Source: a virus
Taxonomy: Duplodnaviria; Heunggongvirae; Uroviricota; Caudoviricetes
DNA: 16,117 nt
IMG/VR virus record: IMGVR_UViG_2778261278_000003
Span: 1-16,117 of that record
Reading direction: 5' to 3' (one strand)
The position numbers were made by a program. This document shows, one piece after another, positions 1 through 3,000 of this stretch (positions are counted from its first letter, which is position 1; the number at the start of each line of letters is the position of its first letter).

Positions 1-3000
1 GTGGCTCGGACAACACGCCCTCTGAGCAACACCGAAGTTCTACGTGCTAAAGCGCTAGATAAGGATCTAACACTGCATGATGGTGATGGGCTTTTTCTGA
101 TAGTGAAAACAAACGGTAAAAAACTCTGGCGCTTTCGCTATCAACGACCAACTACAAAAAAAAGAACAATGATAGGGATAGGTGCTTTCCCAGCTATCTC
201 ACTTGCTGATGCTAGAAGGTTAAGGGCGAATTATCTTGCTTTGTTAGCTAATGGCCTAGATCCACAAGTTCAAGCTGAACTTATCGAAGAACAACAACAG
301 ATAGCCATAGACAGTATTTTTTCGACTGTTGCATTCAATTGGTTCCAGCTAAAAAGCAAAAGCGTTACCCCTGATTACGCTAAGGATATATGGCGCTCTC
401 TGGAAAAGGACATATTCCCAGCTATCGGGGAGCTCCCTGTCCAGCAAATCAAAGCCCGGACTCTAGTCGAAGCCCTTGAGCCAATAAAAGCACGTGGGGC
501 TCTTGAAACTGTACGTCGCCTGATACAGCGGATTAACGAGATTATGATTTATGCCGTAAATACTGGTCTGCTCGATGCAAATCCTGCATCAGGCGTCGGG
601 ATGGCCTTTGAAAAACCCAAAAAACAAAATATGCGGACGCTGAGACCTGAAGAACTGCCGGAACTAATGCGTTCTTTAGCTATGTCAAACTTATCCGTTC
701 CCACTCGCTGTCTTATAGAATGGCAACTTCTGACCCTCGTGCGTCCATCAGAGGCATCTGGTGCTCGGTGGGCTGAGCTCGATCTGGATGCAAAGCTCTG
801 GGTGATTCCAAGCGAGCGGATGAAGGCTAAGCGAGAACATATTGTTCCTTTGTCTCCTCAAGCCTTAGACATTCTTATGGTGATGAAACCAATAAGTGGG
901 CATCGGACATATATTTTTCCGAGTCGAAACGATCCCCAAAAAGCAATGAATAGCCAAACAGCAAATGCGGCATTAAAACGTATTGGATATGGACAAAAAT
1001 TGGTTGCTCATGGTTTGCGTTCTATTGCAAGTACAGCGATGAATGAGGCAGGTTTTAATTCAGATGTTATTGAAACTGCACTTTCTCATGTTGACAAAGA
1101 CGAAGTTCGGCGTGCATATAATCGCGCTTTATATCTCGAGCAACGTAAAGAGCTTTTAAATTGGTGGGGATTATTTGTCATGAACTCTAAATAAAAGCTT
1201 TTTAATCATCAAAAATTTTAAGGCTTTCATTCATGAAAGCCTTCTGTAACAATTATAGGTTCATCTAGCATATATTGTTTTGCAACATATAAAGGAAAAA
1301 AATCTGAGGTATAAAAATTAAAAATATCCCATTGGATATAACACCAAAAAAGAATAACCAAAAGCATCAATGTTATATTTGCCATGGATATATGAAAACT
1401 CCACAACAAACAAAACAAAAGAGAAAAAATAATCTCAGAGTTAATTATCTTAACTCGAAGATTAGCCTTTTTATCTGATATCTTTTTATCTATCTCCTTA
1501 ATAATAAAAAAATCATGGGCATCATTTCGTTTTAACCCCTCATATTTCTCATAAATCCTTAAAATATAGCCATCAAAATCACCAATAAAAACAAGGCGAT
1601 TGAAAACTGAAAAGTTTATTTTCTTATGACCATAATTTAAAACCAGAGAAATGATTAGGGCTTGTATTAATTGCAACACTGAAAGCCCTGACAGTACTCC
1701 CTGTTGAAAATCAAGCACATCCTTAAGGGAAGTTTGATTCATGATATTATATATATCAACATTACCTTTCTGATAAGTCAACATAAAGAAAATTACCATG
1801 AATAATATCAAAAAACGATGAAGAGGATACTTACAAGTAAGATCCTCAATATATTTCTCTTGGACTTTTTTTGCTAGTTCATCCATTAATACACCTGTAT
1901 AAAATATACATCTCCACAATTTGGATCAAAAGCTCCATATTCTATATATGGAGCACCTAAAAACACCATCTCTCTTTCATTCTGAAAATAAGGAAAAACC
2001 TCTTGAAAATCTTCTTTTGAGGCAAATCTCAGTGTACTTACCGAATTGTTAAAACTGTTTTTCATTTTAGCAGAAAGATATTGCAAATCCATCTCTGTAA
2101 CTTTCACTCGATAAATTACAGGGTCACCCAATTTCTTCCTAGTTATAACCCTATGAAAATCATTGGCTTTTGCTCTATTGAACCCAAAAACCTCTGTGCG
2201 ATCTGCTGTCAACGATATTTCTAGCGAGCTATCCCCTGAATGATGAGACCTAATAATTGCCAACATTTGATCTATCTCTCTCACAATTGCTCGGTCACCA
2301 TACCGTCGATTAACTGCTGCATCCGGATTTTCCAAAAGTTGCTGATAATCACGAGGTAAAATTTTCTGGCTAGCAATTTGTGCACGTCTAGTCTCTACAC
2401 TTTTACTAATAGTTTCAGCATTTTCAAGACCAGACTGCTGTGCTTCTTTAACTGCATTATTTAGTGCATTTGAAACCCTTTCGACTACTTTTTTTGTAAT
2501 ATCTTTCTTAGAGAAGAAGTCGATAATATATCCACCTTCTCTAGGGGGCTGTACCAACAGTTCAACATCTTTATAGTAGTCATGATGCATCTTTGCATAT
2601 TTCCAAAGATTACCATGTCTGATGTCAAGATAAGCCCGATCTAAGGCACTTTGCAAATGGCCTAGGCTTTTAGAAAGAGTTCTCAGGGATACTTGGTGAT
2701 CAGGTGCAATATCGCCATCAAAATGCAATTCAACAATCGCCACTTCACTTTGCTCCATGTGGAAAAATAAGTCGTTAATGTTCATATATTACGTTCATAT
2801 AAAGCACAGATCTACATCTTGAAAATGAATTTTAAAGCTGAATGAGATTTGTGATAATTCTAAAAGACATTTTTATGATACATCGCGCGCAGTGCTTTCC
2901 CCGCCTCGCCCGCCCGCTTTGCGGGGCGGTTTTAATGCAGTTGCACTGACACGCTCAGACCGCGCCGGGAATGGCGCGGTTTGCAGAAAATGAGGCAGGG

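What the first reader, a model, noticed from the sequence alone, without database searches (positions are those of the whole stretch)
1227..2891. AT-rich two-gene cargo operon (soluble 299-aa protein plus four-helix membrane protein) at the P4 cos-int hotspot
The operon sits exactly between cos (2892-2910) and int, the locus where P4-like satellites carry variable anti-phage cargo and where P4 itself has gop-beta-cII. It is compact: a promoter-sized gap of about 100 bp after cos, TAATG coupling of the two genes, and a terminator hairpin embedded in the 3' end of gene B. It is compositionally foreign (about 30-37 percent GC versus about 60 percent in the P4 core). A soluble protein followed by a small polytopic membrane protein is the typical layout of sensor plus membrane-disrupting abortive-infection modules. 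I could not assign either protein to a known family. The arrangement (two co-transcribed genes reading from cos toward int, convergent with int) matches what I recall of gop-beta, so these may be Gop/Beta homologues in an element that lacks cII; that pair is itself mechanistically uncharacterised.
Basis: partly seen in the sequence, partly recalled or inferred. Interest (0 to 1): 0.85.

Follow-up and report, generated by a model that had tools for sequence, protein, structure and literature searches.

The report
Untested-function two-gene P4 satellite cargo
This is a real two-gene cargo (a soluble protein plus a four-helix membrane protein) in the defence hotspot of a P4-like phage satellite. 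It was already catalogued and cloned in 2022, when it gave no phage protection, so it remains an uncharacterised candidate rather than a new discovery.

Summary
Gene A (1886-2785, minus strand, 299 aa) and gene B (1227-1886, minus strand, 219 aa, four membrane helices) overlap in TAATG. They lie between the P4 cos site (2892-2910) and a convergent integrase, and are 29-37% GC against 54-61% in the P4 core.

The Gop/Beta idea is refuted: there is no sequence similarity, no PADLOC hit and no third gene.

The pair is not new. It is "System #30" (51 of 5,251 E. coli P4 loci) in Rousset et al. 2022. Those authors cloned it with its native promoter as pFR87 "HP + 4TMs", with protein B identical and protein A differing by one residue. 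They listed it among tested systems that were not validated against eight phages.

New here:
- A is predicted with confidence to carry a C-terminal OB-fold, which is acidic, after a distantly DUF7946-like N-terminal region.
- The A family is small (173 clusters) and has a single architecture.
- B follows A immediately in 38 of the 47 fetched loci that carry an A homologue, spanning several bacterial phyla.
- In three loci B is replaced by an unrelated two-helix membrane protein.
- The module also sits in the P2 A-Q hotspot and next to AIPR, SIR2, Abi_alpha, TIR-Mrr and PADLOC candidate genes.

The best reading is a sensor plus membrane-effector defence candidate, still unproven. Interest is low to moderate.

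The parts
1..1194 (+). Tyrosine integrase of the satellite, convergent with the cargo. It is not P4 int at the DNA level. In the identical E. coli locus it lies directly after ssrA.
   Evidence: ORF. RefSeq calls it 'integrase domain-containing protein' next to ssrA. No blastn match to P4.
1220..1243 (-). Hairpin (10-bp stem, 4-nt loop) overlapping the last codons and stop of gene B, followed by AAAATTTTT. It is the likely terminator between the convergent genes.
   Evidence: Terminator scan and the sequence itself.
1227..1886 (-). Gene B: a 219-aa inner-membrane protein with 4 TM helices. The predicted topology is N-in/C-in, with a conserved cytoplasmic N-terminal helix (MDELAK..YPLHRF) and a basic cytoplasmic loop at 87-149. 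RefSeq WP_000343805.1; phrog_31922.
   Evidence: Rousset Table S2B notes '4 TMs in protein 2'.
1886..2785 (-). Gene A: a 299-aa soluble protein. The N-terminal region of about 215 aa is distantly DUF7946-like and carries the HFDG..H and YGDR..E.D motifs. The C-terminal part (about 216-299) is an acidic OB-fold. RefSeq WP_001024429.1; phrog_28486.
2786..2891 (-). AT-rich (29% GC) leader and putative promoter region. It holds one sigma-70-like match, TTATCA-17-TAAAAT, at 2857-2829.
   Evidence: The match is weak and not above chance.
2892..2910 (.). P4/P2 cos cohesive-end sequence (reverse complement of GGCGAGGCGGGGAAAGCAC). It marks the boundary between the conserved P4 core and the variable cargo.
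2911..10253 (.). P4 core, given as context: psu 3075-3647(-), delta 3721-4221(-), sid 4218-4970(-), alpha primase 7566-9908(+), and the crr repeats. It is 98% identical to P4.

Best explanation
The region is the variable cargo of a P4-like satellite integrated at ssrA. It is a translationally coupled two-gene module that most likely acts as a phage-defence (abortive-infection or exclusion type) system.

Inferred mechanism:
- Protein A is the cytoplasmic sensor or regulator. Its acidic C-terminal OB-fold and conserved N-terminal domain would recognise a phage-derived protein or ligand rather than ssDNA.
- Protein B is the 4-TM inner-membrane effector. A would hold or activate it, probably through B's invariant cytoplasmic N-terminal helix.
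- On activation B would compromise the membrane and stop phage production.

Shown:
- the gene structures, the location at the hotspot and the foreign composition;
- the predicted folds;
- strict A-B synteny across phyla and replacement of B by another membrane protein in some lineages;
- presence in both the P4 and the P2 hotspots, with defence-gene neighbours.

Inferred:
- the direction of signalling;
- membrane damage as the output;
- anti-phage function itself, for which the only published test was negative.
For: Location: the module sits between cos and int of an element 98% identical to the P4 core. Rousset et al. showed experimentally that this locus is a reservoir of defence systems.

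Conserved pair: B lies immediately downstream of A (overlapping or at most 6 nt away) in 38 of the 47 fetched loci that carry an A homologue. These come from Enterobacterales, Vibrionales, Pseudomonas, Xanthomonas, Burkholderiales, Desulfobulbia, Bacteroidales and a cyanobacterium.

Swappable membrane partner: in L034, L048 and L049, A is instead followed by an unrelated protein of about 248 aa with 2 TM helices. This is the pattern expected of a conserved sensor with interchangeable effectors.

Mobile and defence context:
- A homologue 57% identical lies between replication gene A and the portal/terminase genes of a P2-like phage, which is the P2 hotspot (L043). A second case is L044.
- Salmonella and Serratia copies follow Psu or Ogr/Delta remnants.
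- Neighbours include AIPR and SIR2, Abi_alpha, DUF1016 and HigB, TIR/Mrr_cat plus a transposase, and PADLOC candidates PDC-S15, PDC-S31 and PDC-S14.

Structure:
- The model of B has pLDDT 82, is all-helical, and has 4 TM segments with positive-inside topology.
- The N-terminal 25 residues of B are almost invariant.
Against: [quoted passage not shown] They did not list it among the systems giving robust resistance to any of 8 coliphages (Table S2B, not S2A).
- There is no hit to any PADLOC model and no NCBIfam name as of 2026. It does not appear in the DefensePredictor supplements that are held.
- The OB domain is acidic (pI 5.3 here, family median 5.65), so the obvious trigger, phage ssDNA, is not favoured and the trigger is unknown.
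- The family is rare: 173 clusters among 1.84 billion representatives.
Confidence: 0.5

Rival explanations
1. Kiwa-like logic with the roles reversed. Membrane protein B would be the sensor of infection at the envelope, for example of DNA injection. Soluble protein A would be the effector that is released or activated to block phage replication.
For: Kiwa is also a 4-TM protein plus a soluble protein of about 300 aa, and it occurs in the same P4 hotspot (Rousset Table S2B, pFR79). A has many invariant polar residues (H21, D23, H30, R35, R50, K62, D164, R165, E170, D172), which could form an active or binding site.
Against: There is no homology to KwaA or KwaB (hhalign probability below 1%) and no PADLOC Kiwa hit. 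The gene order is reversed. A is the conserved partner while the membrane protein is swapped, which fits an interchangeable effector better than an interchangeable sensor. The OB domain is acidic.
Confidence: 0.15
2. A toxin-antitoxin or addiction module that stabilises the satellite, with B a membrane toxin and A its antitoxin, and no dedicated anti-phage role.
For: The layout is a translationally coupled pair with a small membrane protein. The published phage test was negative. P4's own gop-beta pair was proposed to act as a toxin-antitoxin.
Against: - The pair also occurs outside mobile elements, as a lone two-gene insert next to defence genes.
- At 299 aa with two conserved domains, A is large for an antitoxin.
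- In E. coli M15 an IS5-family element truncates A while B stays intact and the strain is viable. This is weak evidence, because the insertion probably also cuts off B expression.
Confidence: 0.15
3. Gop/Beta homologues: the same system as P4 gop-beta, lacking cII.
For: Only the shared position and orientation between cos and int.
Against: BLASTP finds no similarity for A against Beta or B against Gop. No PADLOC model is hit. Sizes, order and TM number all differ: Gop is 133 aa with 2 TM and comes first, and Beta is 355 aa. The window has no DNA similarity to P4 left of cos.
Confidence: 0.01
4. Non-defence cargo (a moron) that benefits the host or the satellite in another way. Possibilities are envelope modification, exclusion of competing satellites, or modulation of the P2 helper.
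For: The defence assay was negative. Distant structural and sequence echoes of A exist in uncharacterised phage proteins: three BFVD hits at E of 4e-11 to 2e-9, a sub-threshold NCBIfam hit to 'LAPAL motif putative phage structural protein', and phrog_3243.
Against: The module is embedded repeatedly among defence genes in non-phage contexts. It occupies the two hotspots (P4 psu-int and P2 A-Q) whose cargo is predominantly defensive.
Confidence: 0.15

Closest known systems
Rousset et al. 2022 P4-hotspot 'System #30' / pFR87 'HP + 4TMs' (PMC9122126)
   Same: It is the same system. Protein B is identical and protein A differs by one residue (I96V) from the cloned E. marmotae E1118 copy. WP_001024429 + WP_000343805 are listed in the paper's Table S1A.
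   Different: Nothing differs structurally. The paper gives no domain assignment and no phenotype. The OB-fold, the family distribution, the partner swap and the P2-hotspot copies are added here.
Lambda RexAB and the P4-borne 'RexA + 4TM' systems
   Same: The architecture and gene order match: a soluble protein of about 280-390 aa followed by a 4-TM membrane protein. Both are carried by temperate elements or satellites. In the classical RexAB model (from established knowledge, not tested here) a cytoplasmic sensor activates a membrane channel that depolarises the cell.
Kiwa (KwaA 4-TM + KwaB DUF4868)
   Same: It is a two-component system with a 4-TM protein and a soluble protein of about 300 aa, found in the same P4 hotspot.
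   Different: The gene order is opposite. No homology is found by PADLOC, Pfam or hhalign.
P4 gop-beta-cII
   Same: It has the same position and orientation between cos and int, and it includes a small membrane protein.
   Different: The proteins are unrelated, it has three genes, and the membrane protein (2 TM) comes first.
Pfam DUF7946 (PF25678) and DUF6575-containing viral proteins
   Same: The N-terminal region of A (residues 19-92) matches the start of DUF7946 weakly, and 25 of 58 family members reach E of 0.01 or better (best 3.2e-6). Foldseek finds a full-length structural match to a viral DUF6575 protein (E 1e-9). Vassallo et al. 2022 name DUF6575 as a domain in one of their validated E. 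coli defence systems.
   Different: The window protein is below the Pfam gathering score (15.4 against 27 bits). No Pfam DUF6575 hit appears at E of 1 or better, and no PD-system model in PADLOC is hit. The DUF6575 link is a structural lead only and was not tested further.

Membership tests
P4-like satellite hotspot cargo (psu/cos-int locus) | Variable genes lie between psu/cos and int of an element with the P4 core (sid, delta, psu, alpha). | tested here: met
   Window 2911-10253 is 98% identical to P4, cos is at 2892-2910 and int at 1-1194. The pair is listed in Rousset Table S1A/S1B.
gop-beta-cII (Rst_gop_beta_cII) | Homology to Gop (133 aa, 2 TM) and to Beta (355 aa). | tested here: not met
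   BLASTP gives E of 6.4 or worse for A against Beta and 14 for B against Gop. There is no PADLOC hit.
gop-beta-cII (Rst_gop_beta_cII) | A third gene, cII (sce7726 family), is present. | tested here: not met
   Only two ORFs lie between cos and int.
RexAB | Sequence homology to RexA (PF15969) and RexB (PF15968). | tested here: not met
   There are no Pfam hits at E of 1 or better. hhalign against the P4-borne RexA-like + 4TM pair gives probabilities of 0.4% and 0.1%.
RexAB | A soluble sensor gene is followed by a 4-TM membrane protein gene. | tested here: met
   This is an architectural resemblance only.
RexAB | Membrane depolarisation follows activation by a phage trigger. | not testable with these tools
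   This needs infection and membrane-potential assays.
Kiwa | KwaA (4 TM) and KwaB (DUF4868) homology, with kwaA first. | tested here: not met
   There is no PADLOC or Pfam hit. hhalign probabilities are 0.2% and 0.1%. The gene order is reversed.
Rst Hydrolase-3TM (HAD hydrolase + TM) | A HAD-type hydrolase domain in the soluble protein. | tested here: not met
   There is no HAD family in Pfam at E of 1 or better and no PADLOC hit.
Pfam DUF7946 (PF25678) | A score above the gathering threshold (27 bits). | tested here: inconclusive
   The window protein scores 15.4 bits (E 0.019). Of 58 homologues, 25 match at E of 0.01 or better, the best at 3.2e-6. The relationship is distant.
OB-fold domain | A five-stranded barrel with a helix between strands 3 and 4, and structural similarity to known OB proteins. 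| tested here: met
Validated anti-phage defence system | The cloned genes reduce plaquing of at least one phage. | not testable with these tools
   The published test (pFR87, 8 phages, native promoter) is listed as tested but not validated. No later validation was found.

The most novel reading that the evidence does not exclude
The A/B pair founds a genuinely new anti-phage or anti-helper family. It would have a sensor of a previously unseen fold combination (a DUF7946-like domain plus an acidic, protein-binding OB-fold) that gates interchangeable membrane effectors, either the 4-TM B type or a 2-TM type. The 2022 assay would have missed it because of a narrow phage panel or poor expression of these AT-rich genes from the native promoter.
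Probability: 0.4. Interest if true: 0.55.

Novelty: already known. Interest (0 to 1): 0.3.

Why it matters
If the module does defend, it would add one more family to the catalogue of soluble sensor plus membrane effector systems. It would have an unusual sensor, and its natural partner swap (4-TM against 2-TM) could help map how sensors couple to membrane effectors.

In practice the value of this check is mostly negative. The locus is not a new discovery. The proposed cloning experiment has been done without a phenotype, and the Gop/Beta link is wrong. The fold assignment, the family census and the context data give a sharper starting point for a re-test with induced expression and a wider phage panel.

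Tried and rejected
- PADLOC, Pfam, NCBIfam and PHROGs scans of both proteins gave no curated family. The only strong hits were two PHROGs of unknown function.
- The phage GenBank collection has no DNA match.
- A profile search of A against PDB sequences gave only weak coiled-coil noise, to HA2.
- Direct BLASTP to P4 Gop and Beta, and hhalign to Rex-like and Kiwa proteins, found no relationship.
- Full-text searches for the WP accessions, DUF7946 and PF25678 returned nothing.
- The DefensePredictor supplements do not contain the accessions.
- The supplements of the 2026 NAR P4/P2 paper are not held. I could not check whether this pair was one of its eight 'unknown' loci. None of the six positives described there matches it.
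- I could not find which Vassallo PD system carries DUF6575.
- I considered ssDNA sensing by the OB-fold and down-weighted it, because the domain is acidic across the family.
- I treated the sigma-70 match as weak, because the scan finds no excess over shuffles.
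Full report
**1. What is in the sequence**

The minus strand between the integrase (1-1194, plus strand) and the P4 core carries two ORFs.
- Gene A runs 2785->1886 and encodes 299 aa.
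- Gene B runs 1886->1227 and encodes 219 aa.
- The stop of A and the start of B share the A of TAATG.
- A 10-bp-stem hairpin (1243-1220) covers the last five codons and the stop of B. It is followed by AAAATTTTT and sits in the 32-bp spacer to the convergent int.

The 106 bp between A and cos are 29% GC. They contain one 9/12 sigma-70-like match (2857-2829). The scan finds no more promoter-like sites than in shuffled sequence, so this is weak evidence.

GC content is 37.1% for A and 28.8% for B, against 53.6% for psu-sid and 61.2% for alpha.

The cos assignment is right.
- Window 2892-2910 is the reverse complement of the first 19 nt of the linear P4 record.
- Window 2911-10253 is 98% identical to P4 from 11624 down to 4291.
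- Everything left of cos, including int, has no DNA similarity to P4.
- An E. coli chromosome with an identical cargo region shows the element inserted directly after ssrA. Its genes are annotated Psu, Ogr/Delta, 'glycoprotein 3' (at the position of sid), Icd-like and primase. A and B are 'hypothetical proteins' WP_001024429.1 and WP_000343805.1.

**2. Are the genes real, and how common are they?**

- A has 92 homologue clusters at 29-99% identity, nearly all 282-300 aa. B has 30.
- A profile search of 1.84 billion representative proteins finds only 173 clusters. Every full-length member has the same single architecture. The family is small and compact.
- In E. coli, 25 of 5,426 complete genomes carry the region at 99% identity or better, always once and always on the chromosome.
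- No record in the GenBank phage collection matches at the DNA level.

**3. It is already in the literature**

Rousset et al. 2022 (PMC9122126) catalogued the psu-int hotspot.
- Their Table S1A lists WP_001024429 + WP_000343805 as 'hypothetical + hypothetical'.
- They cloned it from Escherichia marmotae E1118 as pFR87, 'HP + 4TMs'. Protein 2 is identical to window B. Protein 1 differs from window A by one residue.
- The primers sit in the 3' end of psu and the 3' end of int. The clone therefore corresponds to about window 1111-3200 with the native promoter, on a pSC101 plasmid in MG1655.
- pFR87 is in Table S2B ('additional tested systems'), not Table S2A ('validated defense systems'). The text says seven P4 systems gave robust resistance to at least one of eight phages, and this one is not among them.

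A negative on eight phages is not conclusive.
- A 2026 study using pTet induction and 28 phages found protection for 6 of 8 'unknown' P4 loci.
- None of the six systems described there matches this pair.
- Its supplements are not held, so I could not see whether this pair was one of the two negatives.

I found no later naming.
- Neither protein gets a named NCBIfam family (June 2026 release): gene B has no hit and gene A only sub-threshold ones.
- PADLOC has no hit.
- The accessions are absent from the DefensePredictor supplements and from full-text searches.

**4. The Gop/Beta idea fails**

- BLASTP of A against Beta and of B against Gop finds nothing.
- No gop-beta-cII model in PADLOC is hit.
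- There is no third gene.
- P4's Gop (133 aa, 2 TM) comes first and Beta is 355 aa.

**5. What the proteins look like**

Protein A:
- The AlphaFold2 model is confident (pLDDT 89, pTM 0.83).
- Residues 216-299 form a classical OB-fold: strands 223-233, 238-243 and 249-253, helix 257-268, then strands 272-282 and 293-298.
- This region is weakly and distantly related to Pfam DUF7946. The window protein scores 15.4 bits against a 27-bit cut-off, and 25 of 58 homologues reach E of 0.01 or better.
- Three uncharacterised viral proteins match over the full length by Foldseek (E 4e-11 to 2e-9). One is annotated DUF6575, a domain that Vassallo et al. 2022 list among those in their validated E. coli systems. 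This is a lead only. At the sequence level neither Pfam DUF6575 nor any PD model is hit.
- The OB domain is acidic: pI 5.3 here, and a family median of 5.65.
- Its most conserved part is the loop between strands 4 and 5 with its flanks, P.IEYGAFDP..GD.YF.
- I therefore favour protein or ligand recognition over ssDNA binding.
- Invariant polar residues in the N-terminal region (H21, D23, H30, R35, R50, K62, D164, R165, E170, D172) suggest a specific site of unknown nature.

Protein B:
- Its model is all-helical (pLDDT 82).
- It has four hydrophobic segments at 24-40, 63-86, 150-168 and 172-192.
- It has a 63-aa basic loop (14 K/R, pI 9.65) predicted to be cytoplasmic.
- Its N-terminal helix, MDELAK.VQ.KYIEDLT.KYPLHRF, is almost invariant.

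**6. Comparative genomics**

Among the 47 loci fetched that carry an A homologue, a B homologue lies immediately downstream, overlapping or at most 6 nt away, in 38. The hosts include E. coli, Salmonella, Serratia, Buttiauxella, Photobacterium, Aeromonas, Shewanella, Pseudomonas, Xanthomonas, Stenotrophomonas, Burkholderiales, Desulfobulbus, a Bacteroidales MAG and the cyanobacterium Phormidium. The B proteins align end to end despite only 19-24% identity.

The exceptions are informative:
- Two loci end at a contig edge.
- One has a frameshifted A.
- In Paraburkholderia (L034) and two viral contigs (L048, L049), A is followed by an unrelated protein of about 248 aa with two TM helices and no known family.
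- L010 is followed by a 132-aa 2-TM ORF.

A conserved soluble protein with interchangeable membrane partners is the pattern expected of a sensor with modular effectors.

Context points to defence:
- A homologue 57% identical lies in a P2-like phage between replication gene A (Phage_GPA) and the portal/terminase genes. This is the P2 A-Q hotspot (L043). A 48% homologue has the same setting next to a DUF2971/PDC-S31 gene (L044).
- Salmonella and Serratia copies follow Psu or Ogr/Delta remnants.
- Other neighbours are AIPR and SIR2 (Xanthomonas), and Abi_alpha, DUF1016 and HigB.
- Further neighbours are TIR/Mrr_cat plus a transposase, PDC-S15/FRG (Pseudomonas gessardii) and PDC-S14.
- Two copies sit just downstream of glmS.

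**7. Most likely mechanism**

The best-supported reading (confidence about 0.5) is a two-component defence candidate of the 'cytoplasmic sensor plus membrane effector' kind.
- A recognises a phage product through its OB domain and conserved N-terminal site.
- A then controls B, probably through B's invariant cytoplasmic helix.
- B damages or depolarises the inner membrane.

All of these steps are inferred. The shown facts are listed in sections 1-6.

Rival readings are as follows:
- A Kiwa-like reversal, with the membrane protein as sensor and A as effector (0.15).
- A plain toxin-antitoxin or addiction module (0.15).
- Non-defence cargo (0.15).
- Gop/Beta homology (refuted).

One anecdote bears on the TA model. 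In E. coli M15 an IS5-family element truncates A to 252 aa while B stays intact. Loss of A is therefore tolerated, although B expression is probably lost as well.

**8. Comparison with known systems**

- By architecture it resembles lambda RexAB and the P4-borne 'RexA + 4TM' systems. It is not a member: there are no Pfam RexA or RexB hits, and hhalign probabilities are below 1%.
- It also resembles Kiwa in composition but not in sequence or gene order.
- It is not the HAD-hydrolase + TM system, because A has no HAD domain.

**9. Verdict**

The feature is real and correctly described, and it is correctly placed at the P4 hotspot. It is already catalogued and has already been tested once without a phenotype, and the suggested kinship with Gop/Beta is wrong.

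It remains an uncharacterised defence candidate. The additions made here are the OB-fold, the small single-architecture family, the strict synteny with occasional partner swap, the presence in P2 hotspots and the defence-gene neighbours.

Interest is 0.3. If it were shown to defend, it would be a new family of a known kind (interest about 0.55).

Noticed in passing
window 1-1194 and 2911: Identity to P4 (98%) stops exactly at cos. The integrase has no DNA similarity to P4 int, and in the identical E. coli locus the element sits directly after ssrA rather than at P4's usual tRNA-Leu site. Integrase and cargo thus form one non-P4 block joined to a P4 core.
   Followed up: partly
L043 9836-11349; L044 9959-11520: The same A-B module (57% and 48% identity) lies in P2-like phages between replication gene A and the portal/terminase genes, which is the P2 defence hotspot. 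A 2026 paper reports that P4 and P2 almost never share defence genes, so this diverged sharing is a mild exception.
   Followed up: partly
L034 10907-11653; L048 10906-11655; L049 10943-11686: In these loci the A homologue is followed not by a B-type 4-TM protein but by an unrelated protein of about 248 aa with two TM helices (about 6-24 and 163-181) and no Pfam or PADLOC family. This is a natural partner swap.
   Followed up: partly
L050 2385-3353 (E. coli M15): An IS5-family element is inserted in the 3' part of gene A. It truncates A to 252 aa and separates it from an intact gene B.
   Followed up: partly
window 10572-13962: The chromosomal autotransporter adhesin gene ypjA/ehaD next to the satellite is split into a 1011-aa AIDA-repeat ORF and a 108-aa beta-domain fragment. 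It lacks about 1.3 kb that is present in strain MLI023K1 (L001 24808-26114), which looks like a repeat-region deletion or pseudogene.
   Followed up: partly
window 14746-16117: DUF5508 and DUF5507 genes of the ypjA-side chromosomal island lie here. In the reference strain the DUF5507 genes are pseudogenes interrupted by IS1.
   Followed up: no
window 9953-10258: The two 120-bp crr direct repeats of P4 (the cis region required for replication) are recognisable at the right end of the satellite.
   Followed up: no
L026 10133-10980: In a deltaproteobacterial MAG the A homologue is split by a frameshift and has no B. It is followed by a PADLOC candidate PDC-S14 (DUF4357) gene, which suggests decay of the module inside a defence island.
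   Followed up: no
window 2785 vs 2758: Most homologues of A are about 285 aa and begin near residue 10-15 of the annotated 299-aa protein. Neither ATG (M1 or M10) has an obvious Shine-Dalgarno sequence, so the true start is uncertain.
   Followed up: no
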